A DNA stretch of 64,000 nt from Candidatus Woesearchaeota archaeon. GTDB lineage: Archaea; Nanobdellota; Nanobdellia; Woesearchaeales; GW2011-AR9. Within the stretch, counting starts at the first letter, position 1. Every line of letters starts with the position of its first letter. The stretch lies in assembly GCA_018657845.1 (NCBI GenBank), contig JABHWJ010000020.1, positions 190 to 64,189 on the forward strand, in the 5' to 3' direction. Shown here in pieces: positions 5,647-54,594 of this stretch. The notes under the pieces were generated by a model, which worked only from the letters and a program-made list of their open reading frames with translations, was not told the DNA's origin and did no database searches. Made by a program: the position numbers and the translations under genes.

Positions 5647-5670
5647 TTCTTAAGAAAAAATTCTATAAAA

Positions 5671-6360
5671 TCAAACTTTTTTCAATTCATTTAATATTGG
5701 TAAAGATTGATTCTTAATTGCAGTTAATTGGGCTTTGATCCCATTTACCCGATTATTCCAATTCGCATCAGTTGTTCTTCTTGGTAATTTTCTAATCACT
5801 TCACTTTCTACTTTACTTCTCAGACTTTGTGCCGCAGAAGCATATCTATCAAAGAAACCTTGCCACTCTCCTTCATGTTCAGCACGAGCATGTTTAAGTT
5901 TTCTCCAAGTGTGATGAAATTCTTCTTTAAGATTATCCATCTTACGCTTAGCTTCTCTTCTATTCCCATCAGTTAATAAATTAGCTATCTCCTCTGTCAA
6001 ATTTAAAGCTTTAACTAAAGAATCAATTGGTACTAAAACTGCTTCTTTTCTTTTCCGTTTCTCTTCATCTTCTTTATTCTTCTTCTTCTGCTCTTCTCCA
6101 TGCTCTTTCTTTTCTTTCCTTTTCTTCTCTGCAACAGCCTTTCGATCTCCGATAAACTCTTTAAACTCTTTTCTACGCTTCTCTAGAGTATCATCTTTCT
6201 TTTTCTTTCCCTCAATTACCTTTCCACCACCAATTGATCCAATGAACACAAACTTCACTGCATACCACAGAATCATTGCTGAAACAACTATCAGGGCATA
6301 ATTGATAAAACCATTTATACTAGCTTCAACTGCATTAGAAAGTGTCATTCCAAGTGCCAT
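5671..6360 (-). CDS. Module 3, B-type: N-terminal TM anchor + K/E-rich linker + helical/coiled-coil domain (229 aa), unknown function
   Basis: TM helix is FINYALIVVSAMILWYAVKFVFIG, followed by KKKKDDTLEKRRKEFKEF...EKRKRKE and a helical C-terminus. The ATG shares 1 nt with the stop of the upstream A-type gene (TAATG at 6358-6362). Architecture matches 6989..7864 and 8446..9294. Confidence 0.7.
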   Translation of the reverse strand: MALGMTLSNAVEASINGFINYALIVVSAMILWYAVKFVFIGSIGGGKVIEGKKKKDDTLEKRRKEFKEFIGDRKAVAEKKRKEKKEHGEEQKKKNKEDEEKRKRKEAVLVPIDSLVKALNLTEEIANLLTDGNRREAKRKMDNLKEEFHHTWRKLKHARAEHEGEWQGFFDRYASAAQSLRSKVESEVIRKLPRRTTDANWNNRVNGIKAQLTAIKNQSLPILNELKKV

Positions 6361-6923
6361 TATAACAACTTACCTCCCAATATATTTACATGAGTTCTCA
6401 TTGCCGCTAAAATCCAAAATAAAAGTACACATAAGACTAATTTTAAAAATACATGAAACCTAGTTTCTTCTTCATCATTACCTGGAATTTTAAATAATAA
6501 AAAACCAATCCCTACTACTGGGCCTCCAATTAACAACAAAGCAACCATAGTTGCCCATCCAGTTCCAACACCTAATAATACACTAGGAGACAAAAAGATT
6601 GCTGTGATCGTAGCGAGAATTGCTGCTACTACTCCCCCTTGACCTCTATTCAAAAAACTTAATGCTCCTTTCTTGCCACCCATCATAGTAACTACAGCAA
6701 AAATGATCGTGAACACTAAAATCCAAACTAAAATTCTAGTAAAAGCAACTACTGAATTTCCTGAAGACATATTTAGAAAACCTAATTGTCCCATCCATAA
6801 GAATTTATTCCAGACTCCATTTAACATCCCAGTATTTCCAACTCCGGCAGCGCTAGTTCCACTACACCCCACAATAAATAAATTTAATAAAAACAATAAA
6901 CTATTCTTCACCAACCTTTTCAT
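6360..6923 (-). CDS. Module 3, A-type: lipobox signal peptide + four-TM membrane protein (187 aa), unknown function
   Basis: Signal peptide with lipobox LFIVGC/SG, then four G/A/I/L/V-rich hydrophobic helices. It is a divergent paralog of 7868..8410 and 9299..9883 (shared block VVAFTRILVWILVF vs LGFVRILIGILAF vs AVAFIRVILGVLIGF). Confidence 0.7.
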   Translation of the reverse strand: MKRLVKNSLLFLLNLFIVGCSGTSAAGVGNTGMLNGVWNKFLWMGQLGFLNMSSGNSVVAFTRILVWILVFTIIFAVVTMMGGKKGALSFLNRGQGGVVAAILATITAIFLSPSVLLGVGTGWATMVALLLIGGPVVGIGFLLFKIPGNDEEETRFHVFLKLVLCVLLFWILAAMRTHVNILGGKLL

Positions 6924-6988
6924 TCTCTTAAAGAATAATCTTAAACTTATAAACTTTTTGTTTGATTAGAATATATAAGAAAAATTAA

Positions 6989-7864
6989 CTAACCCATTAA
7001 CTCTCGAGTCTTAACCATAATTCCTTGTAAGTCTGTTACTGCTGCTTCTTGTTTATCTCTTGCTGACTTTAACTCTGCCCTCATAGAATTTCCAGTAGAG
7101 ATATTTAAATTATTCTTAATGGTAGTTAACCTTGACTGAAGGGTAGTTCCTCCCAAATTTCGAGTATAATTTACTGCAGAACCTCCAGTAAAATTAATCA
7201 ATTTAATGTGTCTCAAACTAGATTTAATAACTGTAGTATATTTTGATAAGACTTGATCCCTAAGCAAATCTTTAGTTTCTTTATGTTTCCTTAAAATATC
7301 TTTTTCCAAAGCCATTATTGGTTGTTTATCAACTTCATTATCATCTAAAACTCCCAATAGTCTCTCCATTTCAGTTTCTTGTCTAAAAGTATATCTTCTT
7401 ACTGCCCTAAAATGACTAATAGAATCTTTAATCTTCTGCTCTACAGCTTCAACTGCATTAACTAAAACGTCTCTCTGTCCAACATTGTTAAACTTGGTCC
7501 TTCCTAAAGCTGAATCTATAGCACCAACTGCTCGATCCATCTCAATTTCAATCGCATCAATTTTCTCTAACTCTTTTTCTTCTTCTATATGTTCTCTTAA
7601 AGTTCGAGTATGTGTTCTTCTTAATTTCTTTTTCCTAGACTTCTCTGCTTTATCAGAAGATTTCTTATAAGCATCTTTACCTTTATCCCACAGTTTCTTA
7701 CCGGTACCTTTTCCTAAGCCATACTCTTTACCACTCTTCTTTTCTCCCATAGGGTTAAAAGCAATCAAATATACAAAATAACCTGCACAACCTAATAGAA
7801 CTATCTGTACCCAATTCCCTAACAAGAGAATCCAAGTTACAAATCCATCTAAAGGTCCTGCCAT
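6989..7864 (-). CDS. Module 2, B-type: N-terminal TM anchor + K/E-rich linker + coiled-coil protein (291 aa), unknown function
   Basis: TM helix is WILLLGNWVQIVLLGCAGYFVYLIAF. Clear paralog of 8446..9294 (RRYTFRQETEMERLLGVLDD vs KKITWRQESKMEKLLRDYEE; ALEKDILRKHKET vs VLEKNILGLHEES). Starts 3 nt after the stop of the upstream A-type gene. Confidence 0.75.
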   Translation of the reverse strand: MAGPLDGFVTWILLLGNWVQIVLLGCAGYFVYLIAFNPMGEKKSGKEYGLGKGTGKKLWDKGKDAYKKSSDKAEKSRKKKLRRTHTRTLREHIEEEKELEKIDAIEIEMDRAVGAIDSALGRTKFNNVGQRDVLVNAVEAVEQKIKDSISHFRAVRRYTFRQETEMERLLGVLDDNEVDKQPIMALEKDILRKHKETKDLLRDQVLSKYTTVIKSSLRHIKLINFTGGSAVNYTRNLGGTTLQSRLTTIKNNLNISTGNSMRAELKSARDKQEAAVTDLQGIMVKTRELMG

Positions 7865-7867
7865 TTT

Positions 7868-8410
7868 CTAAACACTCACTCCGGTCACTAAATGAGCCCA
7901 GTGACCTATTTGTGATACTAACCACATTGCAAATAATACTCCCACCAATTTAATAACCGCAATACTTCGGTTAGGAGTTGGTGTACCCAAGATTAACCAC
8001 AAACCTGCGGCAATTGGTGTACCCATTATAATAAACGCAAACAGTACGGCATAAGTCGAAGCTATTGAAGTTAACACCGTTCCTGGTAAAAACACAGATA
8101 CCATCACTGCCAAAATTATTGCGATCCCAATTCCCATTGGCCTAGTTAATCCAGGGATTACTGAAACTCCAAGATAAAATAATATGAATGCTAAAATTCC
8201 AATTAAAATTCTTACAAAGCCCAAAACTTGATTATCTGCATTGGTACCTAAAAACTTTAATCTCCCAACATCTAAAACAGTATACCATGCATTTTTACCA
8301 GTTGTTCCTATATCCTCGAGAAAATTAGTTTGTGCAGAAACAAGAACTGAAGAACTAATTAATAAAATTAGAAACATCATCGATAAAAACATCAAGTTCC
8401 TCTTTTTCAT
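7868..8410 (-). CDS. Module 2, A-type: signal peptide (SPase I-type, VSA/Q) + four-TM membrane protein (180 aa), unknown function
   Basis: Begins MKKRNLMF like module 1 A-type. Shares LILGTPTPNRSIAVIKLVGVLFAMWLV with LILATPTHSRATAVVKIAAVLFMLWLV of 9299..9883. Confidence 0.75.
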   Translation of the reverse strand: MKKRNLMFLSMMFLILLISSSVLVSAQTNFLEDIGTTGKNAWYTVLDVGRLKFLGTNADNQVLGFVRILIGILAFILFYLGVSVIPGLTRPMGIGIAIILAVMVSVFLPGTVLTSIASTYAVLFAFIIMGTPIAAGLWLILGTPTPNRSIAVIKLVGVLFAMWLVSQIGHWAHLVTGVSV

Positions 8411-8445
8411 TTTTTTAATTATTCTCCTTAACTATTTAAAGTTTT

Positions 8446-9294
8446 CTAATGCCACGCTGGTTTAATCTTAGCAATTATTCCTCTCATGTTTTCCAGTGCC
8501 TTTTCTTGTTTATCTTCTGCCTCTTCTAGATTTTTCTTGACGTTTTCCATTTTACCAAACCACCCATCAAATGTTTTTTTAGTGGTGGCAGTAAAATTAA
8601 TCGGCCCACTAATCTTGGCCTTAGCACTTTTCTTTAAATTATTTGAGATTCCTTCTATTTCTTTTTCAGCTCCTTCTACAAATTTTGCGCTTTCTTCATG
8701 TAATCCTAAAATGTTCTTTTCTAAAACCTTGATGGGTCCTAGTTCTTTCTCATCAACCCCTGCTTCTTCATAATCTCTCAACAATTTTTCCATCTTACTT
8801 TCTTGTCTCCAAGTTATTTTTTTCAATTTTCTAAAATTTCTTTTTAAATCATTCAAACTTTCTTTTAAATTAGAAAACGTTTTTGCTAAAGTTTTTACTT
8901 CATCTATAGAATAAAACTTTCGCTTATTATAAATTCCTTCTAATTCTTCTTCAGCATCAGATAATTCTAAATCAACTAAACTTAATTTCTTTAGGTACTT
9001 CTCGTCCCCAACATACTCTCTTAATGCAGTAGTTTTTTCTTTCTTAGCATCTTTCTTGGATTGCTTTAATGCTTCATTCTTCTTTTCAGCATTTTTATCG
9101 GTACCTATCATCCATCCTGGGCCTTTCTTATGGGCTCCCTTCAACTTATCCAAAGACCACTTAGCTTCTTTATGTTCTCCTTCAGTTCCACCTTTAACAA
9201 AAAGGTAACCATAATAAATTAACATACCTACCAGTATTGCGTTCGCCCAACCTGTTAGGTTGGATACCCAGTCCATTAAACTTTCTAATACCAT
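8446..9294 (-). CDS. Module 1, B-type: N-terminal TM anchor + K/E-rich linker + coiled-coil protein (282 aa), unknown function
   Basis: TM helix is WANAILVGMLIYYGYLFV. Paralog of 6989..7864 (see there). Starts 4 nt after the stop of the A-type gene at 9299. Confidence 0.75.
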   Translation of the reverse strand: MVLESLMDWVSNLTGWANAILVGMLIYYGYLFVKGGTEGEHKEAKWSLDKLKGAHKKGPGWMIGTDKNAEKKNEALKQSKKDAKKEKTTALREYVGDEKYLKKLSLVDLELSDAEEELEGIYNKRKFYSIDEVKTLAKTFSNLKESLNDLKRNFRKLKKITWRQESKMEKLLRDYEEAGVDEKELGPIKVLEKNILGLHEESAKFVEGAEKEIEGISNNLKKSAKAKISGPINFTATTKKTFDGWFGKMENVKKNLEEAEDKQEKALENMRGIIAKIKPAWH

Positions 9295-9298
9295 CTTA

Positions 9299-9883
9299 TC
9301 ATAAACCCATTGATCTAAAAATTGTTGAAATAAAACCAGGAGTTGAAGACAATTTATAGGCCCAACTTCCTAATTCATTAACTAACCATAACATAAATAA
9401 CACTGCTGCAATCTTAACTACTGCTGTTGCTCTTGAATGAGTCGGAGTCGCCAATATCAAATACAGACCTATCGCTACTGGAGTAAACACTAATATAAAT
9501 GCAAACACTGCTGCCCAAGTTTCCCCAAACAACAAAATCAAAGAGGGTGGAAAAAATATAGTAACCACAATAGCTAACAATACTGAAATCCCTATTGCTG
9601 CACCATTAGGCAAACCAATTAAAGAGATTCCCAAATAAATTAAAAATCCGATCAACACTCCTAATATAACTCTAATAAATGCTACTGCCTTACTCTGACC
9701 GGTATTCAACCCAAGAGCCTCTAGACTCCCAATATCTACAACCAATTCAATTAATTGTGTCATTCCCAATCCATTAAATCCAGAATCTCCAGATTTTCCA
9801 GGAGAATCTTGAGTGGCACAACCAGAAAATAATAATAGAACTAACAATACAACTAAAAACATCATCAAATTCCTTTTTTTCAT
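9299..9883 (-). CDS. Module 1, A-type: lipobox signal peptide + four-TM membrane protein, unknown function
   Basis: The ORF track starts at 9892 (MELMKKRN). I prefer the ATG at 9883 (MKKRNLMMFLVV) because it matches the paralog start MKKRNLMF and lies about 29 nt from a TATA box at 9907-9919. Lipobox is LLFSGC/AT. Confidence 0.72.
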   Translation of the reverse strand: MKKRNLMMFLVVLLVLLLFSGCATQDSPGKSGDSGFNGLGMTQLIELVVDIGSLEALGLNTGQSKAVAFIRVILGVLIGFLIYLGISLIGLPNGAAIGISVLLAIVVTIFFPPSLILLFGETWAAVFAFILVFTPVAIGLYLILATPTHSRATAVVKIAAVLFMLWLVNELGSWAYKLSSTPGFISTIFRSMGL

Positions 9884-9906
9884 TAACTCCAAGTAAATTT
9901 CTAACC

Positions 9907-16695: not shown

Positions 16696-17433
16696 ATGTG
16701 TCGGATGATTATAGCCATTGGAGAACTTAATTTTAACCCATTAATAGACAGTCTTATCCTCATGGCCGAAGATAAAAATGAACTTCATGAACACAACAAA
16801 AATAACCAAGGAAGTTTCCTCCACAAAGAAGGTTGGGGCATTGCCTACTTAGATCAAGACCAAAATTGGATAATTGAAAAATCTCCCCTTCCAATTTACA
16901 AAGATTCAAAAATAGACCAATGTAGAAACATAAACACCAACCTTGCTATTCTTCATGTTCGCAAAGCCACTAAAGGAATTGTCTCCCTAGAAAACACTCA
17001 CCCTTTCCAACAACAAGATTTTGTTTTCTGTCACAATGGGGGAATCCATGAAGAAATTCTCCACAGCCCTTCTTTTCAACCTCAAGGAAATACTGACTCA
17101 GAAAAACTCTTTTACTCATTATTAACTGAAATAAACCATCATCCTAAGATTGAAGATGCAATTAAAATAAATCTAAACAAGTATCACAATTACTCAGGGA
17201 TAAATTTATTTCTAGCCAACAAAAGCCATTCTTATATTTACATCAAAAAAAATAACCTCAAAGAATATTTCCAAATGAAACTAGGAATAAATAAAAATTT
17301 CTTAATTATCAGCTCAGAAATTCTTCCCAACCTTCCTGAAACTAAATGGCAAATATTGGAACAAGATGACTTAATTACTATCAATAATCAAACCAAAGAA
17401 TTCTCCATCGAAAACACATCTAACTCTCAATAA
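16696..17433 (+). CDS. Class-II (Ntn) glutamine amidotransferase-like protein (YafJ/EgtC-like)
   Basis: N-terminal MC (Cys2 nucleophile) is followed by RMIIAIG. The blocks GWGIAY, LHVRKATKG..SLENTHPF and FCHNGG are typical GATase_2/Ntn. Confidence 0.75.
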   Translation: MCRMIIAIGELNFNPLIDSLILMAEDKNELHEHNKNNQGSFLHKEGWGIAYLDQDQNWIIEKSPLPIYKDSKIDQCRNINTNLAILHVRKATKGIVSLENTHPFQQQDFVFCHNGGIHEEILHSPSFQPQGNTDSEKLFYSLLTEINHHPKIEDAIKINLNKYHNYSGINLFLANKSHSYIYIKKNNLKEYFQMKLGINKNFLIISSEILPNLPETKWQILEQDDLITINNQTKEFSIENTSNSQ

Positions 17434-18520
17434 CTGTTAATCCTTTAGCTATTAAAATCTTCCTCACCGAATTATTTATCTGTTCTTCAGAAATCTCTCC
17501 TCTTTCTACAGCTTCTTTAATTCTTAATATCATTTCCCAAATTTCATTGGGATCTTCGTTAAAGTTAATAATTAAATCATTTCCTGCCACCACTAGATCT
17601 ACATACATATTTTCTATAGCTAAATAATAATCCTTTAAACCCAACATATTCACTTCATCACTAACTATTAATCCTTTAAACCCCTCCTTTACTCCCTTAA
17701 TAACTTCTTTGGAAACAACCGAAGGATATCCCTCAGAATCGACGGCCCCAGAAACGATTATATGACTCACCATTACCATTCCTACTTCTCCTTTCTCAAC
17801 TAGATAATTATAAGGATACAAATCTTCTTCTGCTATTGTCGCCACCACCAAAAATTTATGGGGATCTTTTACAACTAATGTTTTTCCGGGATAATGTTTG
17901 GCTGTAGCAATAACTCCTTCACTTTGCAAACCCAAAATATAAGCTTCTGCCAACTCACCAATTCTTTTTTCATCACCAGGAAAACTCCTACATTTCCAAA
18001 TCTCATCATTCAAATCAACAACAGGGGCATAATTAACATTAAATCCCAATCCTGACAAAAACTTTCCTTCATCACTACCTTTTTCAAATGCCTCTCCAGT
18101 ACTATTAATTTCACTCACTGCCACAAATTGTTTAAAATTAGCAAAAGGATTCCAACAACCCTCTAAATCCACAGTTACAAAAAAAGGTATCTCCATTTCT
18201 TCCTGAAATTTATCAATTATTTCTTTATACAGCTCTCCGTTTTGTAAAGCAAACAAATGAATTCCTCCAACTTGCATATTTTTCCAAGCATGTAAATTAT
18301 GTAATCCCCCATGTACAATAACCATCTGAGCTATCTTTTGTTCCAAACTCATTGAACTTAAATCTACCACTCCATCCTTCACTTCAAATTTCTGTTGTGG
18401 GATCAACCACCCTTTTGCTTTAGCAATATTCAAAGAACCCAACACTAAAACAAGCACTATTAAAACTAAAAAAATCTTTTCACTCAAACCTCTTTTTCTT
18501 TTTTTTATTCTAATCACCAC
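17420..18520 (-). CDS. Glycoside hydrolase family 3 (NagZ-like beta-N-acetylhexosaminidase), N-terminally membrane-anchored
   Basis: GGIHLF, PVVDLN, KHYPG and GLIVSDEVNMLG (nucleophile Asp block) match the GH3 N-domain motifs. The N-terminal helix IFLVLIVLVLVLGSLNIAKA acts as anchor or signal. Confidence 0.78.
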   Translation of the reverse strand: MVIRIKKRKRGLSEKIFLVLIVLVLVLGSLNIAKAKGWLIPQQKFEVKDGVVDLSSMSLEQKIAQMVIVHGGLHNLHAWKNMQVGGIHLFALQNGELYKEIIDKFQEEMEIPFFVTVDLEGCWNPFANFKQFVAVSEINSTGEAFEKGSDEGKFLSGLGFNVNYAPVVDLNDEIWKCRSFPGDEKRIGELAEAYILGLQSEGVIATAKHYPGKTLVVKDPHKFLVVATIAEEDLYPYNYLVEKGEVGMVMVSHIIVSGAVDSEGYPSVVSKEVIKGVKEGFKGLIVSDEVNMLGLKDYYLAIENMYVDLVVAGNDLIINFNEDPNEIWEMILRIKEAVERGEISEEQINNSVRKILIAKGLTVIES

Positions 18521-45004: not shown

Positions 45005-46426
45005 TCAAGATCCAACACATTTAAGATAGAAAACAATGATATCGGCAAACTTTGATAATGCTCTTCTTATAGGAATCGCGTGAATTCTGTCTAAAGGACT
45101 AGTTAGAACTTTTACTTTGTGTAAACCCACTTCTTCAACTCCTGCGGTTTGTTTGTTCAAAAACCAACTGGGATATCCTCCAGGCAATGATGTTAATTCT
45201 TTTAGAAAGTTTTCGGGACCAGTTCCACCCATACCCATTCTAGCATCGACAGAAAATGCTCCTGAATAGACAATCCCCTTTGGTCCAACTGCAGATTGTA
45301 ATGTCATCTGCCCCAGATGGAGGTTCATTCCAGTAGCAGAATATTCATCCAAGATCAAAACATTTTTCCCCAAGAGTTCCTTCTTTTGTCTTGGTGAATA
45401 AAACTCACCATGTTCTCTAATAAATTTTAACTTCACTCTTCTGCTTTTAGGGATCCGATTAATCACCCATGCCACCACTAACCCCAAGATTCTTGCACTT
45501 CTATCTAAAGCGTAAATAAAATCGATTTTTTTGTTGTTTACTACCCTAACTACTCGACTCGAAAAAATCACCAGTGCCCAAATTTCCATCAAAGTGATAT
45601 GGTTGTAAATCTTTGATTTTATTATCTTTTTAATAGTCTTACTGATAGTGTCCCAAGATGGGCTTACTTTTGGATGAGCATATAATTTTTGGAACAAAAG
45701 TAATATCTCTCGTACTTCTCTCATTCTCCCTCTGTCTATTTGGCCCAGAGAATGGCCACCCTTAATTAACTGGTAAGTCAAATCCACCAAATCTCCTATT
45801 TCCTGTCTAGCAATTAATAAAAACTTCTTTTCTCCTTCATCCCGAGAGTACTTTAATTTGGCAGATATTTCTTTTTCCAATGCTGTTTGAATTCCTTCTT
45901 TTAATCTTTTTTTTGTTCCAGAGTGTTTGAAAGTAAGTTTATCCAACAAAGATAATAATGCAAGAATATCTTCTTCAGCTTCTTTGGCTTCTTTATCCAG
46001 TTCATCCCAATTAATATCTTCTTCTTTTAATTCTTTTCCAAACGTTCCCGTCATTCGTGATAATTTTTTTGCCAACCTATTTCCATATAACTCTAAATGT
46101 TCTCGTAGTTTTTTCTTAGGAACATCACTAAATGCAATAACCAAATTATTCTCATAACCCATTTCTTCCAAGTTTTTTAATAATTCATGAAGAAGCTTGT
46201 CTTGGATTCGTTCTTCTACCCAGAGTCCCCTCCGACTAAATCCCCCTCTTAAAATGCTTTTGAGTTCAGCAACAGCAGCTTGGTTGATTGCCTCAACTTT
46301 TTTTGGATCTTTTTCTTTATCTGTATTTATTTTTCTTATTTTAAGAAGTTGTAAAACAATCTTTAGATCCTTGTGTTGTTTAAGCAAGTAATCCCTATCT
46401 TCCATAACTGGTAATATTTTCTCCAT
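45005..46426 (-). CDS. Two-domain protein: N-terminal ~270-aa charged helical domain + C-terminal type-I phosphoribosyltransferase-like domain
   Basis: GKNVLILDEYSATGMNL matches the PRPP-binding loop pattern (four hydrophobic residues, two acidic, then xxTG). IDFIYALDRSARILGLVVAWVI resembles the PRT core helix. The N-domain has no recognised motif. Confidence 0.5.
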   Translation of the reverse strand: MEKILPVMEDRDYLLKQHKDLKIVLQLLKIRKINTDKEKDPKKVEAINQAAVAELKSILRGGFSRRGLWVEERIQDKLLHELLKNLEEMGYENNLVIAFSDVPKKKLREHLELYGNRLAKKLSRMTGTFGKELKEEDINWDELDKEAKEAEEDILALLSLLDKLTFKHSGTKKRLKEGIQTALEKEISAKLKYSRDEGEKKFLLIARQEIGDLVDLTYQLIKGGHSLGQIDRGRMREVREILLLFQKLYAHPKVSPSWDTISKTIKKIIKSKIYNHITLMEIWALVIFSSRVVRVVNNKKIDFIYALDRSARILGLVVAWVINRIPKSRRVKLKFIREHGEFYSPRQKKELLGKNVLILDEYSATGMNLHLGQMTLQSAVGPKGIVYSGAFSVDARMGMGGTGPENFLKELTSLPGGYPSWFLNKQTAGVEEVGLHKVKVLTSPLDRIHAIPIRRALSKFADIIVFYLKCVGS

Positions 46427-48481: not shown

Positions 48482-48496
48482 ACCTTACAGAAAAGG

Positions 48497-48506
48497 TTTA
48501 TATATT
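48497..48506 (+). promoter_or_regulatory. Putative TATA box for the surface-protein cluster
   Basis: tttatatatt is preceded by aaaagg and lies about 25 nt upstream of the ATG at 48527 (leaderless geometry). Confidence 0.45.
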
Positions 48507-48526
48507 ATAAAGGTTTTCGAAAAGAC

Positions 48527-49714
48527 ATGATCGCTACTAATAAAAGAGGACAAGCTGCTGCGGCTGCAGTTTTCATTGCCATCCTTCTCGGATTAATCAT
48601 TATGTATATTGTTATAATTCCTCCTTCAGAGAGGGCTGAACTCCTTGGAGAAGAAACTACCACTACTACTTCAGATGGAACAACTATTACTTCATCTGGT
48701 GCTGATGTCCTCCTGATTAGCAAACCTGGAAAAATTGATTACTTGGCTCAAGACACCATTGAACATCCATTATCCTCAATAAATATTTTTACTAAAACCG
48801 AAGATAAAATTCTAGATGAAAAAGATAGTCTGATTACTAAAACTGGTCTTTTTTCAAAAAAATCTGCGAATATGACTTTTTTTATCTCTGACTTAAAAAA
48901 TACTGAAAACCACATTCTTAATTTTAACATCAAAGAAGCAGATGGTACTCTTTACATTAATCTAAATGGTCAAGAAGTTTTTGCTAAAGAATTAAGTTCT
49001 GGACAAAACCCAGTAATAAAATTGCCTACCTCTGCCTTAAAAGAAGGAAATTTTTTAGAATTTGTAGTTTCCTCACCTGGTGCAGCATTCTGGTCAACTA
49101 ATGAATATGCTTTAGAAAACATCAAAGTAGTAGCTTCTGTAACTAGCATCTCTGCTCAAAATTCCAAAAGTACTTTCTTAATTTCAGAAACAGAAAAAAA
49201 TAACTTGAAAACAGTTGTCTTGGAATTTTATCCTGAATGTATTGAAAAAACAGGGAAACTAACTGCTTGGGTAAACAACAAAGAAATCTATTCTGGCCTT
49301 CCTTCGTGTGGCGCAGAAAAAATTGAATTAGAAGTTGCTCCTGAATTGATTAATCAAGGAGAAAATTCTCTTGCCTTTAAGGTAGATGAAGGAGAATACA
49401 CTATCTCTCCCGTAGCCATAATCTCCGAATTAGAAGAAATTGAATTCCCTACTTTTTATTTCGAATTAACCAATGAACAATATAATGAAATCCAAGATGA
49501 AGACAACACTGTAAAACTTGCTCTTTCCTTTGTAGATATCGTTGATATTAACAAAGGAGATCTTGTTATTAATGGAGAAACAGTTCCTTTTGAGATTAGC
49601 GATGCTTCTCACAAAATTGATATCTCCAATAAAATTGTTCAAGGAAGCAACTCCATTAAAATTAGACCAAAGAAAACTTTAGAAGTAAGAGAACTTAAAG
49701 TAACCCTAGAATAA
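48527..49714 (+). CDS. Secreted/surface protein with type-IV-pilin-like (class III) signal peptide and three internal beta-rich repeats
   Basis: The N-terminus MIATNKRG/QAAAAAVFIAILLGLIIMYIVII fits the archaeal prepilin motif ([KR]G followed by a hydrophobic helix). A T/S-rich linker follows. Three repeats appear: LYINLNGQEVF...LKEGNFLEFVV, LTAWVNNKEIY...INQGENSLAFKV and DLVINGETVPF...IVQGSNSIKIRP. Confidence 0.6.
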   Translation: MIATNKRGQAAAAAVFIAILLGLIIMYIVIIPPSERAELLGEETTTTTSDGTTITSSGADVLLISKPGKIDYLAQDTIEHPLSSINIFTKTEDKILDEKDSLITKTGLFSKKSANMTFFISDLKNTENHILNFNIKEADGTLYINLNGQEVFAKELSSGQNPVIKLPTSALKEGNFLEFVVSSPGAAFWSTNEYALENIKVVASVTSISAQNSKSTFLISETEKNNLKTVVLEFYPECIEKTGKLTAWVNNKEIYSGLPSCGAEKIELEVAPELINQGENSLAFKVDEGEYTISPVAIISELEEIEFPTFYFELTNEQYNEIQDEDNTVKLALSFVDIVDINKGDLVINGETVPFEISDASHKIDISNKIVQGSNSIKIRPKKTLEVRELKVTLE

Positions 49715-49770
49715 ATTAAGTAGTTTTGGTGAAATAACTCTTATATTCATTATTCAAAAAGAGGATAAAG

Positions 49771-51708
49771 ATGAAGGATGTGGGTAGTGGCATTAACAGT
49801 TATCTCCATAAATCTAATTCTAATTATGAAAAAACCTTTCACGAAAAAAGTTTCTTTGAAGAAGAGGAAGAAGAATCTACTGACAAAGAGTACAAAACTT
49901 TGACCGGCCGTCAACAATCAATAATTAAACAACAAATGACTTCTGGATCAAGCACCTTGGAAGAAACAAAAGAACTAAAAAAAATATCTGCCCGGCTCAG
50001 AGAACTAGAAGGAGAAGAAGGAGATGTTGCAAAAGAAGAAAAAGGAGCCGCTAAAGAAGAAGAAACAGCTGCAAAAGAAGGAGAAAAAGCATCTGAAGCC
50101 CAAGAAAGCTATTGGAAAAAAATGCTTAAATCTGGAGGGAAAAGCACTTGGGACTCCCTCAACAAAGAAAGATCTTTTCCTAAAAAAGAACCCAAAGAAA
50201 AATCAACTGGAACATCTTCTAGTCTTGCTTTGTATGTACTCTTATTTATTATTGCTGCTTTAGACTTATTTGCAAAAAAAAGTATTGGTTATGAACCTAA
50301 AGCTGCCCTTTTAATTTCCACAGTTACTGGAATAATTTTCTTCCTCTCCACCAAAAGCCATCCTGGACAAAGATTAACAGTTATTGGTGCATTTGTACTT
50401 GATGCAGCCTTCTCCCAAGGCCTTCTTTACCTAGTTCCAGAAACAGGAATTAAAGAAACCTTAATCGCCATTCATGTTTTCATTTGGATTATCTTAGCAG
50501 TTATTCTTTTCCTCTGGAATTTCTTTGAACATCTTGCTGAAGGACACAAACCTTCAGTACTGGCTGATTTAACATTTGTAGCCATTCTTGGCTTTATTAT
50601 TTTCATATCTTATCCTTTGATTATAGAAACCCAATTAATTCAAGCCAATACTCATTCAGACTATTTCCAAGTCGCTAAAGAAAAAGCAGAAGAAGTTAAA
50701 GTTAAATTTTCAGAAACTTCTCAAAAATGGTCAGATTATCTTCAATGTTCTTTAGAAAAAGATGCTAAAGACCCAAGTATTCAACCTTGTCTAAAAAAGA
50801 AACGCGCTGAACGTTTCTGTGAAAATGATAACAAACCTCTCTCTCCAAATTACAATAAATGTGTTCAAAACTTACTTGAAGAAGGTAAAGCAATAGGGGG
50901 AAAAACTGATTCTTCATACACCGAACATTCTTCTTTAAAATTTAACACAGAAGAATTCCCTGGAACTGTTTATACTGGTCTCCCTAACCCAAAAATAATA
51001 CTTGAAATTAATAATCCCCGCGAACTTTCTCTAAGTGTAGACTTTTACTGCAATTTCTCTAAATTAAAAGAGAATTTCCCCGGAACTCCCAGCCCCATAA
51101 CTCTCACCAAATTAGATGATAATTTCAAAGAAATACCCCTGACCTGCAAACCCCCTAAAAAGTTAGAAAAGGGAAGTTGGAGAGTTTCTTATTCGGCCGA
51201 AGTTTCTGGTTTAGAAACAAAATCTACTCTTCAAAAAATTTATGTAAATCCTGAGAAAACAAAACAACAAAAAGACCAAACCAAATCCCAATTTTACTCT
51301 GGAAAAGGTTATGTTTCCTCTTCATCTCCAGAACTTGCTAGAATCAATTTTATGATAGAATCTTCTAAAAATCCTTTGATTGAACTTGACAATGATAAAT
51401 TCCCTATCCTCTCCTCTTCCATTGAAAACCTTGGTTCAGGAGAAATAATCTCTATTCAAGAATATTCTATTGACCTTAAGAAAGATCTGGATATTGTTGA
51501 CAAAAATTTTGATAAAGAGTGTTTATTCAAATCCTCTCCTCAAGTTAATTTTAAAGATAAAAAAATCCCCTTAACCTCTTGCACGTTAGAGCTTGTTAGA
51601 AATGAATTAGCTAGCATCAAACATTTCGTTCCTAGAACTTACCACGCACTCTTAAAATATAAATATAGAATGACCAAAGAACTAACTATGGAGGTGGCAG
51701 CATCATGA
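49771..51708 (+). CDS. Large membrane protein: ~150-aa acidic/K-rich N-domain, five TM helices, ~340-aa Cys-containing C-terminal domain related to the downstream lipoproteins
   Basis: TM helices begin at LALYVLLFIIAALDLFA. The C-terminus YHALLKYKYRMTKELTMEV resembles the paralog endings LKFEYDYELTMPF, ITLDYNYMESI and LTFEYVYKELI. ATGA overlap with the next gene. Confidence 0.6.
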   Translation: MKDVGSGINSYLHKSNSNYEKTFHEKSFFEEEEEESTDKEYKTLTGRQQSIIKQQMTSGSSTLEETKELKKISARLRELEGEEGDVAKEEKGAAKEEETAAKEGEKASEAQESYWKKMLKSGGKSTWDSLNKERSFPKKEPKEKSTGTSSSLALYVLLFIIAALDLFAKKSIGYEPKAALLISTVTGIIFFLSTKSHPGQRLTVIGAFVLDAAFSQGLLYLVPETGIKETLIAIHVFIWIILAVILFLWNFFEHLAEGHKPSVLADLTFVAILGFIIFISYPLIIETQLIQANTHSDYFQVAKEKAEEVKVKFSETSQKWSDYLQCSLEKDAKDPSIQPCLKKKRAERFCENDNKPLSPNYNKCVQNLLEEGKAIGGKTDSSYTEHSSLKFNTEEFPGTVYTGLPNPKIILEINNPRELSLSVDFYCNFSKLKENFPGTPSPITLTKLDDNFKEIPLTCKPPKKLEKGSWRVSYSAEVSGLETKSTLQKIYVNPEKTKQQKDQTKSQFYSGKGYVSSSSPELARINFMIESSKNPLIELDNDKFPILSSSIENLGSGEIISIQEYSIDLKKDLDIVDKNFDKECLFKSSPQVNFKDKKIPLTSCTLELVRNELASIKHFVPRTYHALLKYKYRMTKELTMEVAAS

Positions 51709-52607
51709 GAAAGCTTTTCATCTTCACTTCAATATTAATTCTTTTAATTATCTCTTCTTGTCAACAAGGCCCCGGAGAAGAAGTCTTGGGCACAGATTTC
51801 AAAAACAATTACATTGGGGAAGTAGTCATCGATTTGATTCCTTTGATGCCTCCTGAAAAAGTTCATGAAGACTCTGATTTTAGAGTTGGAACATACATCC
51901 GTAACCAAGGAGGTTATAAAGCTACAAATGTAGAATTAACCTTGGTTGGTTTTGACGAAGATCAATTTTATTATGGTTTAAATAACGGAAAACAATACTT
52001 TGATTTTGCCGAAACTCTTAAAACCATTGGCACCTTAGAAGGTAAACGTCTTGAAAATTCTCAAGGAGACTTCGACAGAGTGGAATATCTTGGTAGAACA
52101 AAAACTCTTCCCGAAGGACAAGAACAGATTTCCTTCAATTACGGGTTAATTTTAAACTACCATTATAGCAATGAATTAGTTCAAGAAATCTGCATTAACC
52201 CTAAGTTTTATGATGTTTCTTCGGTAGGTTGCCAATCTCATAATGTTGATGGTCAAGATGTTCGTTTAGAAGACGGTATTTCTTTAATCGGCCAAGGGTC
52301 TCCATTAGGAGTTAAAGAAATGGAAGTTGTTATCCACCCGGGAGACAAACCAACCTTAGAAGTTCGTTTTGATGTAAAGAATCTTGGCCAAGGGATAGCT
52401 AAAAACATTCAATTAAATTTGGGACAATTAATCACCAAACCTATGAAGTGTGAAGTTAAACAAAAAAACTTCCGGGATGAACAAGAAGCTACCATTGTTT
52501 GTAACTTCAACCTTAATGATCAATCATCATACACTGCCCCCGTTTATCTAAAATTCGAATATGATTATGAATTAACTATGCCTTTCCCATTTAACTTTGT
52601 TGAGTAA
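51705..52607 (+). CDS. Lipobox protein, paralog 1 (two beta-sandwich, CARDB-like domains; tentative)
   Basis: Lipobox is LLIISSC/QQG. The blocks FRVGTYIRNQGGYKATNVELTLVG and SPLGVKEMEVVIHPGDKPTLEVRFDVKNLGQG are shared with 52662..53600 and 53686..54594. Confidence 0.65.
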   Translation: MRKLFIFTSILILLIISSCQQGPGEEVLGTDFKNNYIGEVVIDLIPLMPPEKVHEDSDFRVGTYIRNQGGYKATNVELTLVGFDEDQFYYGLNNGKQYFDFAETLKTIGTLEGKRLENSQGDFDRVEYLGRTKTLPEGQEQISFNYGLILNYHYSNELVQEICINPKFYDVSSVGCQSHNVDGQDVRLEDGISLIGQGSPLGVKEMEVVIHPGDKPTLEVRFDVKNLGQGIAKNIQLNLGQLITKPMKCEVKQKNFRDEQEATIVCNFNLNDQSSYTAPVYLKFEYDYELTMPFPFNFVE

Positions 52608-52661
52608 ACTTATCTTTATACTCAAATAACCAAAAGACTTATATAACAAAAAATAATATCT

Positions 52662-53600
52662 ATGTCAATGAAAAAGAAGGTGTTTAAGGTAATTTTGTTA
52701 GTAATCGTTTTAATTTTAATAGCTTCTTGTGGATTCAAACCAAGTACTGGAGAAACTCCTCAAGAAACTTCAGTTATTCTAAAACAAGTTCAGACTGGAA
52801 CTCAAGGAATTGTAGCAAATTTCGTTCCTAATTATCCTCCTCCAGATATGTATGACATTACAGAACTTTTAGTTTTAGCAGAAATAAAAAACAAAGGAAA
52901 TTATGACCTTGAACCTGGAGCCTGCCATATTCATTTAACTGGATATGCTGACCAAATCATTAAAGGTATGCCTACTTATCTTCCTTGTGGAATGATTGAA
53001 GGAAAAGACATCCACAACTTAGAAGGAGGATTCAATCAATTAGAATTTCGCTCCAGTAACATAAAACTTCCTCCAAAATTATTTGATTATCATGCTCCTT
53101 TAAATTTATTAGCTTGTTATAAATATCAAACTGTTGCTAACCCTCAAGTCTGTGTCGAGAATAACCTCTACCAGATTGCTTCCGAACAAAAAGCTTGTAT
53201 TGTTAAAGATGTTTCTGGAGGTGGTGGCCAAGGAGCTCCACTCGGAGTAAGTTATGTCAGACCCCAAATGGCTGGTAGTAAAGCAATCTTTGAAATATCT
53301 ATTCAAAACTTTGGTACTGGAAAAGTTCTTTCTCCAACTATTGGCACTCACCAATGTGCTAAAGACCTCACCTATAAAGACTATGATTTAGTTGCTTATT
53401 CCGTTAAATTATCTGGAGTAAATAACCTCCTCTGTAAACCCCAAGGATTCCTTCGTCTTTACAATGGTCAAGGAAAAATTATTTGTTCTGCCATCGTCCC
53501 TAACACTCCTGCCTATGAAACTCCCATTACAATTACCTTAGATTATAATTATATGGAATCCATTCTTAAAACTATTCAGATCATTAAAACACCAGAATAA
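52662..53600 (+). CDS. Lipobox protein, paralog 2
   Basis: Lipobox is LILIASC/GFK. The blocks LLVLAEIKNKGNYDLEPGACHIHLTG and GAPLGVSYVRPQMAGSKAIFEISIQNFGTG are present. It has its own upstream cttatataac TATA. Confidence 0.65.
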   Translation: MSMKKKVFKVILLVIVLILIASCGFKPSTGETPQETSVILKQVQTGTQGIVANFVPNYPPPDMYDITELLVLAEIKNKGNYDLEPGACHIHLTGYADQIIKGMPTYLPCGMIEGKDIHNLEGGFNQLEFRSSNIKLPPKLFDYHAPLNLLACYKYQTVANPQVCVENNLYQIASEQKACIVKDVSGGGGQGAPLGVSYVRPQMAGSKAIFEISIQNFGTGKVLSPTIGTHQCAKDLTYKDYDLVAYSVKLSGVNNLLCKPQGFLRLYNGQGKIICSAIVPNTPAYETPITITLDYNYMESILKTIQIIKTPE

Positions 53601-53685
53601 GCAGAAAATTTATATATCTTAAATAATTCTATTCTCTATTAAAATAAAATTTAAAATAAAACTTAAATTAAAAGAGGCGATTGTT

Positions 53686-54594
53686 ATGAAAAAATATATT
53701 TTACCAGTTCTAGTATTGGGGCTAATGTTACTTGTTGCTTGTGAGGGGGGAGAAGATCCAGTCACAAACGGAGGAGCATTTATCGGAGGAACAGATGGAT
53801 TACTTGCTTCCTTTGAACCATTAAGTGTACTTGACGATGGAGTTTACACTATTTTTGATACAGAAGACTTTCCTTTAGAAGTTATTCTTAACAATAAAGG
53901 AGAACAAACTCTTGTTGCTGGAGAAGTTACTCTTAAATTACTTGGCCCAGCCAAACCAGACTTTGACGGAATTTCCTCATGGGAACTTCAAAACAACGAA
54001 GAAATTGAGAAAATTTCTGAATTCAATCCTTCTGGGGGAGAAGAAGTTATTTCATTTACTCCTAACGCTTATGCTAAATACAAAAGCGAAGTTATTGGTT
54101 ACACAGACATAACTTGGAATCTTGAATATGATTACAATTATAAAACATATTTAATTGTTAATGATGTTTGCTTTAAAGAAGACACCACCGATCCAAAAGT
54201 TTGTACAGTAAAAGAAGCTAAAACTTTCTCTGTATCTTCCGCACCAATTACTGTGACTAGTGTAGAAGAAGACGCTGGAGGAAAAGGAATTATTTTAGTT
54301 AAGGTTGCTATTAGTAACGCTGGAACTGGACAATCCACTAACCCGGGTGAAGAATTTGACCTTAGATTTGATCAAGTTTCTTATGTAATTGATGAACCAG
54401 AACTTTGGGAATGTAAATCTGGTGGTCGAGAAGGAGAAGCTCGTCTTGTTGACGGAACTGCAGAAGTTATTTGTAGATTAAAAGAACCATTGGCAGAAGG
54501 AGAAATCTACACTAAGCCAGTTAAGCTAACTTTTGAGTATGTCTATAAAGAACTTATTCAAGAAAAGTTAAGAGTTAAAGAAAGCGCAGAATAA
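53686..54594 (+). CDS. Lipobox protein, paralog 3
   Basis: Lipobox is MLLVAC/EGG. The blocks FPLEVILNNKGEQTLVAGEVTLKLLG and SAPITVTSVEEDAGGKGIILVKVAISNAGTG are present. It has its own upstream atttatatatc TATA. Confidence 0.65.
   Translation: MKKYILPVLVLGLMLLVACEGGEDPVTNGGAFIGGTDGLLASFEPLSVLDDGVYTIFDTEDFPLEVILNNKGEQTLVAGEVTLKLLGPAKPDFDGISSWELQNNEEIEKISEFNPSGGEEVISFTPNAYAKYKSEVIGYTDITWNLEYDYNYKTYLIVNDVCFKEDTTDPKVCTVKEAKTFSVSSAPITVTSVEEDAGGKGIILVKVAISNAGTGQSTNPGEEFDLRFDQVSYVIDEPELWECKSGGREGEARLVDGTAEVICRLKEPLAEGEIYTKPVKLTFEYVYKELIQEKLRVKESAE

What the first reader, a model, noticed from the sequence alone, without database searches (positions are those of the whole stretch)
48527..54594. Surface-protein cluster: pilin-signal protein, 5-TM protein and three paralogous lipobox proteins sharing a two-domain ectodomain
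Five co-directional genes occupy ~6 kb and none carries a recognisable enzymatic motif. Gene 1 has a type-IV-pilin-like signal. Gene 2 (645 aa) has an acidic/K-rich N-domain, five TM helices and a ~340-aa Cys-containing C-terminal ectodomain, and it overlaps gene 3 by ATGA. Genes 3-5 (300, 312, 302 aa) each have a lipobox (IISSC, LIASC, LLVAC) and are clear paralogs. They share blocks x-I/V-x-N-x-G (IRNQGG / IKNKGN / LNNKGE), S/A-P-L/I-G/T-V followed by V-x-I/V-x-N-x-G-x-G (VKNLGQG / IQNFGTG / ISNAGTG), paired Cys, and the ending F/L-x-Y-x-Y. The ending recurs at the C-terminus of gene 2 (LLKYKYRMTKELTMEV). The N-x-G strands look CARDB/Ig-like, but this is a tentative call. Genes 4 and 5 have their own TATA boxes, so paralogs may be expressed independently. 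For a reduced, probably host-dependent archaeon, a diversified set of lipid-anchored ectodomains plus a pilin-like protein is a plausible envelope or attachment apparatus. No assembly ATPase, platform protein or prepilin peptidase is present in the window.
Basis: partly seen in the sequence, partly recalled or inferred. Interest (0 to 1): 0.7.

Follow-up and report, generated by a model that had tools for sequence, protein, structure and literature searches.

The report
Conserved glycan-free archaeal envelope protein module
Five neighbouring genes of a tiny, probably host-dependent archaeon (Woesearchaeota) encode a conserved set of membrane-tethered surface proteins with common folds but no known relatives. 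They look like one fixed protein complex on the cell surface rather than a variable set of adhesins, and three of them have been strongly selected to avoid sugar-attachment sites.

Summary
Five co-directional ORFs sit at 48527-54594, and g3, g4 and g5 are true distant paralogs. They carry conserved lipoboxes, N-x-G motifs, paired Cys and a Y-x-Y ending. The last ~100 residues of g2 probably match their second domain (hhalign 80%, E 1e-5).

AlphaFold models are confident. g4 is two Ig-like sandwiches (pLDDT 89). g1 is an N-terminal helix, a disordered stalk and tandem CBM-like jelly rolls (pLDDT 92). Neither has a specific PDB or Pfam relative.

The interpretation needs revision. This is not a diversified adhesin set. 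Each gene is a single-copy ortholog conserved across Woesearchaeota/Nanoarchaeota MAGs, and the g1 family alone has 897 clusters at 50% identity. The genes form two sub-modules, g1-g2-g3 and g4-g5, in housekeeping surroundings. g1, g4 and g5 evolve about as slowly as Pelota. No pilus genes accompany the module in ~160 loci.

A new finding is N-glycosylation sequon avoidance. The g4 family has 9 sequons against 271 expected, while other secreted proteins in the same loci are essentially normal.

Best reading: a fixed heteromeric, glycan-free, membrane-proximal envelope complex. Its function is unproven.

The parts
48482..48526 (.). Divergent intergenic region between Pelota (-) and g1 (+). It holds a TATA-like TTTATATA about 30 nt upstream of the g1 ATG.
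   Evidence: Sequence read directly. The Pelota-g1 divergent arrangement is conserved in 32 of 52 informative loci. Promoter function is not tested.
48527..49714 (+). g1, 395 aa. Layout: KRGQ motif plus hydrophobic helix (aa 9-30); conserved PPxERxxLL; disordered T/S-rich stalk (aa 43-57); all-beta ectodomain (aa 60-395) of tandem galactose-binding-like/CBM-like jelly rolls; one Cys pair (C238, C261).
   Evidence: AF2 pLDDT 92, pTM 0.72. Foldseek hits to GH35/GH2 accessory domains, BcsB, reelin, PNGase F and AftD. Family of 897 representative clusters. Invariant residues. Weak Glyco_hydro_2_N and CBM-like hits in 4 of 62 members each.
49771..50217 (+). g2 N-terminal cytoplasmic low-complexity region (aa 1-149). 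It is E/K-rich here and A/G-rich in orthologs.
   Evidence: Sequence. Not conserved in orthologs. No sequon depletion here: 14 observed against 20 expected.
50218..50637 (+). g2 membrane region (aa ~150-289), about five hydrophobic helices with no conserved residues. It reads as an anchor.
   Evidence: Hydropathy. Conservation profile of 17 orthologs.
50638..51708 (+). g2 ectodomain (aa ~290-645). It has a Cys-rich helical part, then two beta domains. The last domain (aa 541-643) resembles domain 2 of g3/g5. Invariant residues are C427, C459, N553, G557, C584 and C604.
   Evidence: hhalign probability 80-81%, E~1e-5. Invariant columns. Sequons 77 against 183 expected.
51705..52607 (+). g3, 300 aa lipobox protein (IISSC). 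It is the fast-evolving paralog and always follows g2.
   Evidence: CARDB E 0.0035, below the Pfam cut-off.
52662..53600 (+). g4, 312 aa lipobox protein (LIASC). It has a ~25-aa tether and two Ig-like beta-sandwich domains (aa ~50-165 and ~194-308), with 8 conserved Cys. It is the most sequon-depleted member.
   Evidence: AF2 pLDDT 89, pTM 0.80. Foldseek. 88 homologs. Invariant residues. Sequons 9 against 271 expected.
53686..54594 (+). g5, 302 aa lipobox protein (LLVAC). It is the constant partner of g4. An oligo-T tract follows its stop codon.

Best explanation
The five genes encode the subunits of one conserved, vertically inherited complex on the outer face of the cytoplasmic membrane of Woesearchaeota-type DPANN archaea.

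Four subunits carry the same tandem Ig-like (remotely CARDB-like), disulfide-stabilised ectodomain. g2 holds it on a variable polytopic anchor with a disordered cytoplasmic tail. g3, g4 and g5 hold it on an N-terminal lipid anchor with a ~25-residue tether. The fifth subunit, g1, is anchored by an N-terminal helix, possibly after class III signal-peptide processing. It presents tandem carbohydrate-binding-module-like jelly rolls on a short stalk that often carries sequons.

I infer that the paralogs pack against each other in a fixed stoichiometry as a membrane-proximal scaffold, with g4-g5 as the conserved core pair and g1-g2-g3 as the second sub-module. The packing surfaces must stay free of N-glycans. 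g1 would be the glycan-contacting part, binding either the cell's own envelope glycans or a partner's.

Shown: the gene set, paralogy, folds, signals, conservation, synteny and sequon avoidance. Inferred: physical association, stoichiometry, and a structural rather than adhesive role.
For: - Fixed gene set and order. g1-g2-g3 is always contiguous. Three lipoproteins follow in 17 of 37 informative g1-centred loci. g4-g5 occurs as a pair in 35 of 49 g4-centred loci. 160 of 164 loci are co-directional.
- The cluster persists in lineages where g1 is only 30-37% identical.
- The surroundings are housekeeping genes: Pelota, TrmB, PheRS, RFC, fibrillarin/Nop56 and ribosomal proteins. No other conserved partner was found.
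- Evolutionary rates. Identity to the window proteins is g5 48%, g4 46% and g1 41%, against Pelota 51% in the same genomes. g3 is 30% and g2 is 28%.
- Extracytoplasmic location. Lipoboxes are conserved. Cys counts are even and Cys pairs are invariant.
- Sequon avoidance. Observed against shuffled expectation: g4 9/271, g5 19/189, g3 40/175, g1 130/310, g2 ectodomain 77/183. The reversed motif is normal. The g2 cytoplasmic tail is normal (14/20). Cytoplasmic neighbours are normal (1002/939). Other lipobox proteins (41/54.5) and other signal/anchor proteins (123/128) are close to normal.
- Residual sequons sit at a few fixed sites and in the g1 stalk.
- The g2 membrane region has no conserved residue, so it is an anchor and not an enzyme.
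- Folds.
Against: - No direct evidence that the five proteins touch each other. No multimer prediction was possible.
- The split into two sub-modules in many genomes shows that co-transcription is not required.
- g2 and g3 evolve fast, which would also fit a role in contacting a variable partner.
- The CBM-like call for g1 rests on fold resemblance with low global TM-scores (0.25 or less) and a few weak Pfam hits.
- High ribosomal-like codon usage of g1, g4 and g5 (ranks 4-6 of 71) is confounded by strand.
- Sequon avoidance proves selection, not what the selection is for.
Confidence: 0.45

Rival explanations
1. Host- or substrate-attachment apparatus. The complex is an adhesin in which the g1 CBM-like modules, or the fast-evolving g2/g3 ectodomains, bind the surface of a host cell.
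For: The lineage is thought to be host-dependent. g1 has lectin-like folds. g2 and g3 evolve fast at 27-30% identity. Some lineages enlarge g3/g4 with extra domains or add a fourth paralog. Many DPANN-specific families are extracellular and of unknown function (PMC8204110).
Against: g1, g4 and g5 are conserved like Pelota and are single-copy. Paralog number is essentially fixed. Tethers are short, about 20-25 residues, so the domains stay near the cell's own membrane. The genes sit among housekeeping genes, not in variable islands.
Confidence: 0.22
2. The proteins are the S-layer itself, or a multi-component lattice. Ig-like domains are the usual building blocks of archaeal S-layers.
For: Tandem Ig-like domains. 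High ribosomal-like codon usage of g1, g4 and g5 (confounded by strand). Core-genome status.
Against: As far as I know, archaeal S-layer proteins are typically N-glycosylated, whereas g3-g5 are selected to have no sequons. The proteins are small at ~30 kDa. Woesearchaeota metatranscriptomes list separately annotated S-layer genes among the top transcripts (PMC11606122). A sequon-rich secreted protein occurs near one locus, with 29 sequons in 733 aa (L079).
Confidence: 0.12
3. A type IV filament-related system. g1 is a pilin-like subunit processed by a PibD/EppA-type peptidase and assembled into, or docked on, a pilus or bindosome-like structure. g2-g5 are accessory proteins.
For: [KR][GA]Q is conserved in 113 of 148 g1 family N-termini and is followed by ~20 hydrophobic residues. 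Woesearchaeota express archaellins, so a class III peptidase exists in the lineage (PMC11606122). In Sulfolobus, class III signal peptides occur on non-filament surface proteins (bindosome; bioRxiv 10.64898/2026.04.22.720090).
Against: No ATPase, platform protein or peptidase is a conserved neighbour in ~160 loci, and none was found among the window ORFs scanned. Only 29 of 148 members fit the strict FlaFind-type pattern, because an A/G-rich stretch follows the Q. The helix is separated from the globular part by a disordered stalk. The invariant PPxERxxLL after the helix suggests a membrane-interface anchor.
Confidence: 0.08
4. A glycan-capture complex analogous to the SusE/SusF surface glycan-binding lipoproteins. 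The beta-sandwich lipoproteins and the CBM-like g1 would hold polysaccharide at the surface for uptake.
For: Lipoproteins built of tandem beta-sandwiches plus CBM-like domains. A signal-anchored GH3 hydrolase occurs in the window and near some loci.
Against: No transporter or glycoside hydrolase is consistently linked. GH3 lies 30 kb away in the window. The Ig-like domains show no CBM signature by sequence.
Confidence: 0.06

Closest known systems
CARDB / DUF11-type Ig-like domains of archaeal and bacterial cell-surface proteins (Pfam PF07705 and relatives)
   Same: Beta-sandwich fold with N-x-G-containing strands, extracellular location, tandem arrangement. There are weak CARDB hits: g3 E 0.0035, and 3 of 41 g3/g5 family members with best E 7e-5. 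A DUF11 protein appears among the Foldseek viral hits.
   Different: All window proteins score below the Pfam gathering threshold. None of 50 g4 family members hits CARDB. The fixed two-domain unit with conserved Cys pairs, the Y-x-Y ending and the lipobox defines separate, unannotated families.
Archaeal lipobox lipoproteins (AliA/AliB pathway, Haloferax volcanii; PMC12462473)
   Same: N-terminal signal peptide ending in [LI][STVA][SAG]C, conserved in the g3, g4 and g5 families. Lipoproteins are reported as prevalent in DPANN, and AliA as present there.
   Different: Lipidation is untested here. The passenger domains are not solute-binding proteins but Ig-like paralogs locked into a five-gene module.
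Class III (type IV pilin-like) signal-peptide proteins that are not filament subunits, such as Sulfolobus bindosome sugar-binding proteins
   Same: A basic residue, then G/A, then Q, followed by a hydrophobic helix at the N-terminus of a large globular surface protein.
   Different: The motif is atypical because of the A/G-rich insert. There are no linked assembly genes, there is no SBP fold, and cleavage is untested.
BcsB of bacterial cellulose synthase, and similar membrane-anchored proteins with tandem carbohydrate-binding jelly rolls
   Same: Single-helix membrane anchor plus tandem galactose-binding-like beta domains facing outward. Foldseek probability 1.0.
   Different: TM-score is only 0.2-0.25. 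The anchor is N-terminal, not C-terminal. There are no flavodoxin-like domains and no synthase gene nearby.
Enterococcus/Lactobacillus WxL surface-complex loci (WxLIP, two Ig-like domains plus an anchor)
   Same: A small operon of co-assembling, non-enzymatic surface proteins that includes a two-Ig-domain membrane-anchored subunit. WxLIP is among the Foldseek hits to g4.
   Different: TM-score is ~0.25. There are no WxL or LPXTG proteins, the domain of life differs, and the anchoring differs. This is an analogy of organisation only.

Membership tests
Type IV pilin / class III signal-peptide protein (g1) | Cleavage motif [KR]-[GA] followed directly by a ~20-residue hydrophobic stretch | tested here: inconclusive
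   [KR][GA]Q occurs in 113 of 148 family members, but only 29 of 148 fit the strict FlaFind-like pattern. A 5-8 residue A/G-rich stretch precedes the hydrophobic core.
Type IV pilin / class III signal-peptide protein (g1) | Genomic association with an assembly ATPase, a platform protein and a prepilin peptidase | tested here: not met
   None is among the conserved neighbour families in ~160 loci. None was found in the window ORFs scanned. Presence elsewhere in the genome could not be tested.
Type IV pilin / class III signal-peptide protein (g1) | N-terminal helix continuous with, and packed onto, the globular domain, as in filament subunits | tested here: not met
   The AF2 model has the helix at 9-30 and a short helix at 33-39. 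A disordered stalk at 43-57 (pLDDT below 50) precedes the beta domains.
Lipobox lipoprotein (g3, g4, g5) | Basic n-region, hydrophobic h-region, then [LVI][ASTVI][GAS]C | tested here: met
   IISSC, LIASC and LLVAC in the window. Conserved in 18/19, 37/41 and 38/41 orthologs; most misses are mis-called or truncated ORF starts and one is a variant box.
Lipobox lipoprotein (g3, g4, g5) | Actual lipidation and cleavage, with AliA/AliB present | not testable with these tools
   This needs the whole genome and biochemistry. AliA is reported in DPANN generally (PMC12462473).
CARDB (PF07705) | Score above the Pfam gathering threshold | tested here: not met
   g3 scores 17.9 bits against a cut-off of 22.7. 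g4 and g5 have no hit. 0 of 50 g4 family members and 3 of 41 g3/g5 family members hit at E<0.01.
CARDB (PF07705) | Ig-like beta-sandwich fold | tested here: met
   The g4 model has two beta-sandwiches. Foldseek hits include integrin leg domains, transglutaminase barrels, WxLIP, the AglB soluble domain and DUF11.
Archaeal S-layer glycoprotein | N-glycosylated surface protein rich in sequons | tested here: not met
   g3-g5 have no sequons. Family-wide depletion is 4- to 30-fold.
Archaeal S-layer glycoprotein | Forms a 2-D lattice and is a dominant envelope protein | not testable with these tools
   Only a confounded codon-usage proxy is available.
Solute-binding protein / ABC-transporter lipoprotein | SBP fold and an adjacent permease or ATPase | tested here: not met
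   The proteins have an all-beta Ig-like fold. No transporter genes are linked.
Galactose-binding-like / CBM jelly roll (g1 ectodomain) | Jelly-roll fold and sequence similarity to sugar-binding modules | tested here: inconclusive
   Foldseek probability is 1.0 against GH35/GH2 accessory domains, BcsB, PNGase F and AftD, but the query-normalised TM-score is 0.25 or less. 4 of 62 members weakly hit Glyco_hydro_2_N and 4 of 62 hit CBM-like, best E 1e-3. Ligand binding is untested.

The most novel reading that the evidence does not exclude
The module is a previously unrecognised, lineage-defining envelope machine of Woesearchaeota-type DPANN archaea. It would be a pseudo-symmetric heteromer of four paralogous, deliberately glycan-free Ig-like subunits (one polytopic, three lipid-anchored) plus a lectin-like subunit. 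It would physically couple the membrane to the glycosylated outer envelope, or to a partner cell's envelope. On this reading, sequon avoidance exists so that the complex does not carry the very glycans its lectin subunit recognises, or so that the subunits can pack or contact a membrane.
Probability: 0.15. Interest if true: 0.8.

Novelty: new variant of a known kind. Interest (0 to 1): 0.55.

Why it matters
DPANN archaea make up a large share of archaeal diversity. How their envelopes are built, and how they contact hosts, is largely unknown for the uncultured Woesearchaeota.

This module offers five unannotated protein families with confident structure models, a clear topology and a defined distribution. 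They behave like core genes, which makes them concrete targets for envelope proteomics, cryo-ET labelling and recombinant binding studies.

The near-total avoidance of N-glycosylation sequons in three of the proteins is unusual. It is also a cheap computable signature. It gives independent evidence of topology and of an active glycosylation system in these organisms. It could be used to find other surface proteins that must stay glycan-free.

Tried and rejected
- Family libraries. Pfam, NCBIfam and PHROGs scans of all five proteins gave nothing significant.
- PDB sequence-profile searches with the g4, g1 and g3/g5 alignments gave nothing.
- Foldseek against PDB and BFVD gave only generic beta-sandwich or jelly-roll hits with low TM-scores.
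- The full-length g2 search was swamped by its low-complexity N-terminus. The repeat without that region found only three proteins, so no deep alignment or structure model of g2 was made.
- g2 as an enzyme or signal peptidase for the adjacent lipoproteins: rejected, because its membrane region has no conserved residue.
- Provirus or mobile element: rejected. The surroundings are conserved housekeeping genes and there are no IMG/VR relatives.
- Extra conserved partners. The candidates downstream of g3 turned out to be GpsA, an anchored GH3, an amidotransferase, S3Ae and a phosphoesterase.
- A conserved cytoplasmic motif in g2: none found.
- The first metagenome scan with the wide g1 alignment failed for lack of a conserved stretch. 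It worked with a narrower alignment.
- Literature searches found no description of this module.
- Codon usage as an expression proxy is confounded by strand.

Full report
**1. The observation**

The window is AT-rich (about 34% GC). It carries archaeal housekeeping genes: Pelota, TrmB, RFC small subunit, fibrillarin/Nop56, Cbf5, AspRS and a ribosomal superoperon. The exact proteins are on record as hypothetical proteins of a Candidatus Woesearchaeota MAG.

| Gene | Coordinates | Length |
|---|---|---|
| g1 | 48527-49714 | 395 aa |
| g2 | 49771-51708 | 645 aa |
| g3 | 51705-52607 | 300 aa |
| g4 | 52662-53600 | 312 aa |
| g5 | 53686-54594 | 302 aa |

g2 and g3 overlap by ATGA. Every quoted motif is present in the translations.

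g3, g4 and g5 are real but distant paralogs. BLASTP gives E 1e-12, 1e-12 and 1e-3 at 21-24% identity. Profile-profile comparison gives 99.8-100% probability over the full length.

The claim that g2 shares their ending is not significant by BLASTP. It gets moderate support from profiles: g2 541-643 against domain 2 of g3 and g5, probability 80-81%, E about 1e-5. The only invariant residues of g2 (C427, C459, N553, G557, C584, C604) fall on the N-x-G-x-G and paired-Cys positions.

**2. What the proteins look like**

The g4 model, built from 50 homologs, is confident (pLDDT 89, pTM 0.80). It shows a signal helix, a ~25-residue low-confidence tether after the lipobox Cys, and two beta-sandwich domains. 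Foldseek finds only generic tandem Ig-like matches: integrin alpha leg domains, transglutaminase C-terminal barrels, WxLIP, the AglB soluble domain and DUF11. TM-scores are 0.2-0.25. By sequence, CARDB is hit weakly by g3 (E 0.0035, below cut-off) and by 3 of 41 g3/g5 family members. No g4 family member hits it. The tentative Ig/CARDB-like call therefore holds as a remote relationship, not as membership.

The g1 model, built from 62 homologs, has pLDDT 92. It shows a helix at 9-30, a short helix at 33-39, a disordered T/S-rich stalk at 43-57, and an all-beta ectodomain. The ectodomain resembles the galactose-binding-like/CBM jelly rolls of GH35 and GH2 enzymes, BcsB, reelin, PNGase F and AftD, again with low global TM-scores. 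Four of 62 family members weakly hit Glyco_hydro_2_N, and four hit CBM-like.

g2 has a low-complexity cytoplasmic N-terminus that differs completely between orthologs. It has about five hydrophobic helices in which no residue is conserved, and a 355-residue ectodomain. It is an anchor carrying an ectodomain, not an enzyme or channel.

**3. Evidence for surface location**

- The lipobox is conserved in 18/19 g3, 37/41 g4 and 38/41 g5 orthologs. Most misses are ORFs whose start was mis-called or that are truncated, and one carries a variant box.
- Every ectodomain has an even number of Cys (2, 8, 4, 8, 4), and the pairs are invariant in the families.
- The third line of evidence is the sequon pattern described in section 5.

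**4. Distribution and gene order**

- g4 has 88 homologs at 30-55% identity in the word-indexed search. All are unannotated, and the named ones are from Woesearchaeota or Nanoarchaeota.
- A pattern-limited scan of GTDB species genomes found 140 relatives.
- The g1 family has 897 representative clusters at E<=1e-3, of which 412 are at E<=1e-30.
- There are no relatives in IMG/VR.

Gene order was analysed in 164 fetched loci.

- g1-g2-g3 is contiguous wherever the flank allows.
- Among 37 g1-centred loci with enough downstream sequence, 17 have g2 plus three lipoproteins and 2 have four. Eleven have g1-g2-g3 only and 2 have two lipoproteins. In the remaining 5, g2 is too divergent for the HMM but a gap of the right size is present.
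- Among 49 g4-centred loci, 10 are full clusters, 35 are a g4-g5 pair and 4 have g4 alone.
- 160 of 164 loci are co-directional.
- The full five-gene order persists in the most divergent lineages, where g1 is 30-37% identical. This suggests it is ancestral. A few of these lineages enlarge g3/g4 to 430-680 aa or add a second g5.
- Pelota lies directly upstream of g1 in 32 of 52 informative loci.

All other recurrent neighbours are housekeeping genes. No pilus ATPase, platform protein, prepilin peptidase, glycosyltransferase or transporter is linked.

Mean identity to the window proteins across the same genomes:

| Protein | Mean identity |
|---|---|
| RFC | 75% |
| TrmB | 68% |
| Pelota | 51% |
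| g5 | 48% |
| g4 | 46% |
| g1 | 41% |
| g3 | 30% |
| g2 | 28% |

These are therefore single-copy, vertically inherited, core-like genes with a fixed number of paralogs. That contradicts the picture of a diversified, strain-variable adhesin set.

**5. An unexpected feature: avoidance of N-glycosylation sequons**

In the window, g3, g4 and g5 have no N-x-S/T, and g1 and g2 have one each. The table gives counts across orthologs.

| Protein set | N-x-S/T observed | Expected from within-protein shuffles | Reversed motif [ST]-x-N |
|---|---|---|---|
| g4 family (110 proteins, 35,778 residues) | 9 | 271 ± 14 | 251 |
| g5 family | 19 | 189 | 147 |
| g3 family | 40 | 175 | 158 |
| g1 family | 130 | 310 | 378 |
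| g2 ectodomain | 77 | 183 | 176 |
| g2 cytoplasmic N-terminus | 14 | 20 | 13 |
| Conserved cytoplasmic neighbours | 1002 | 939 | 931 |
| Other predicted lipobox proteins, same loci | 41 | 54.5 ± 6.4 | 60 |
| Other signal/anchor proteins, same loci | 123 | 128 | 122 |

101 of 110 g4 orthologs and 95 of 109 g5 orthologs have no sequon at all.

The sequons that remain are position-specific. In g1, 50 lie in the stalk (residues 41-60) and 26 at one site near 321-340. In g2 they cluster at two sites, 421-440 and 461-480.

The simplest reading has two parts. First, these ectodomains are exposed to an active oligosaccharyltransferase. Second, glycans are tolerated only at a few sites and are selected against on the Ig-like domains, most strongly on the two most conserved subunits. 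This is inference from sequence statistics. Relatedness of the sequences inflates apparent significance, but the reversed-motif control and the other-protein controls argue against an artefact.

**6. Best explanation and rivals**

I consider the most likely explanation to be a fixed heteromeric complex on the outer face of the membrane. It would have four paralogous Ig-like ectodomains, one on a polytopic anchor and three on lipid anchors. They would pack tightly, which would explain why they are glycan-free, close to the membrane. g4-g5 would be the conserved core. g1 would add lectin-like modules on a stalk that often carries sequons. Physical association, stoichiometry and a structural role are all inferred.

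The rivals are listed below.

- **Host-attachment apparatus.** This is possible. The fast evolution of g2/g3 and the lectin-like g1 fit it. The conservation, fixed copy number and short tethers do not favour it.
- **The S-layer itself.** It is disfavoured by sequon avoidance and small protein size. Separately annotated S-layer genes are also among the top Woesearchaeota transcripts (PMC11606122).
- **A type IV filament-related system.** The [KR][GA]Q motif is conserved in 113 of 148 members and archaellins exist in the lineage. Against it, the motif is atypical and the helix is separated from the globular part by a disordered stalk. No assembly genes are linked.
- **A SusE/F-like glycan-capture complex.** No linked transporter or hydrolase supports it.

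**7. Comparison with known systems and novelty**

The folds are common and the anchoring types are known. Archaeal lipobox proteins are reported as prevalent in DPANN (PMC12462473). The five families themselves have no Pfam or NCBIfam model and no specific structural relative.

I found no description of a module that combines a polytopic-anchored paralog, three lipid-anchored paralogs and a CBM-like protein with a pilin-type N-terminus. Castelle et al. 2021 note only that most DPANN-specific families lack function predictions and that many are membrane-bound or extracellular (PMC8204110).

I rate the finding as a new variant of a known kind, namely non-enzymatic surface-protein complexes built of Ig-like domains. 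Interest is moderate to good, mainly because of the core-like conservation in a poorly understood lineage and the striking sequon avoidance.

**8. Limits**

- No signal-peptide predictor, multimer prediction or whole-genome access was available.
- No structure model of g2 was made.
- The taxonomic range rests on record titles. Some titles say 'uncultured Methanosarcinales', although their RFC proteins are at least 56% identical to the window's.

Noticed in passing
window 2823-9892 (- strand): There are three tandem copies of a two-gene unit. Each unit pairs a signal- or lipobox-bearing ~4-5 TM protein (9299-9892, 7868-8410, 6360-6923) with an N-terminal-TM plus K/E-rich coiled-coil protein (8446-9294, 6989-7864, 5671-6360). 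They are followed by a HerA/DUF87 ATPase (3731-5293) and a presenilin-type signal-peptide peptidase (2823-3698). The three of the small genes that were scanned have no Pfam match. This may be an ATPase-driven membrane machine.
   Followed up: partly
g1-g5 orthologs across L001-L164; window 51705-54594: N-x-S/T sequons are depleted up to 30-fold in the g3-g5 families, and the few retained sequons sit at fixed positions in g1 and g2. The signature could be used more widely to find surface proteins that must stay unglycosylated.
   Followed up: yes
window 45005-46426 (-): A 473-aa protein lies between TrmB and PheRS. It has no Pfam match and no detectable homolog in any of the ~160 related loci, although its flanking genes are conserved. 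It has a K/E-rich N-terminal half, and its C-terminal half contains a phosphoribosyltransferase-like motif (VLILDEYSATG). It may be a lineage-specific insertion.
   Followed up: no
L079:18637-20838 (+): A 733-aa secreted protein has 29 N-x-S/T sequons and Cys-rich C-terminal repeats. It is a candidate heavily glycosylated envelope (S-layer-like) protein in a relative, in contrast to the sequon-free module.
   Followed up: no
window 17420-18520 (-); L105, L110, L116, L119, L123, L143: A signal-anchored GH3 (NagZ-like) glycoside hydrolase is conserved in the lineage. In several genomes it lies 2-3 kb downstream of g1-g2-g3, and in the window it lies 30 kb away. Linkage to the module is weak.
   Followed up: partly
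L005, L007, L018, L026, L027 and many others: Many GTDB records that carry the module are titled 'uncultured Methanosarcinales archaeon' (binchicken co-assemblies). Their synteny and their RFC proteins (at least 56% identical to the window's) place them with the Woesearchaeota-type genomes, so the titles look like mislabels.
   Followed up: partly
whole window: Ribosomal-referenced codon adaptation tracks gene strand. Genes on the + strand score 0.64-0.77 and genes on the - strand score 0.51-0.69. This points to a strong strand-linked compositional bias that confounds expression proxies.
   Followed up: no
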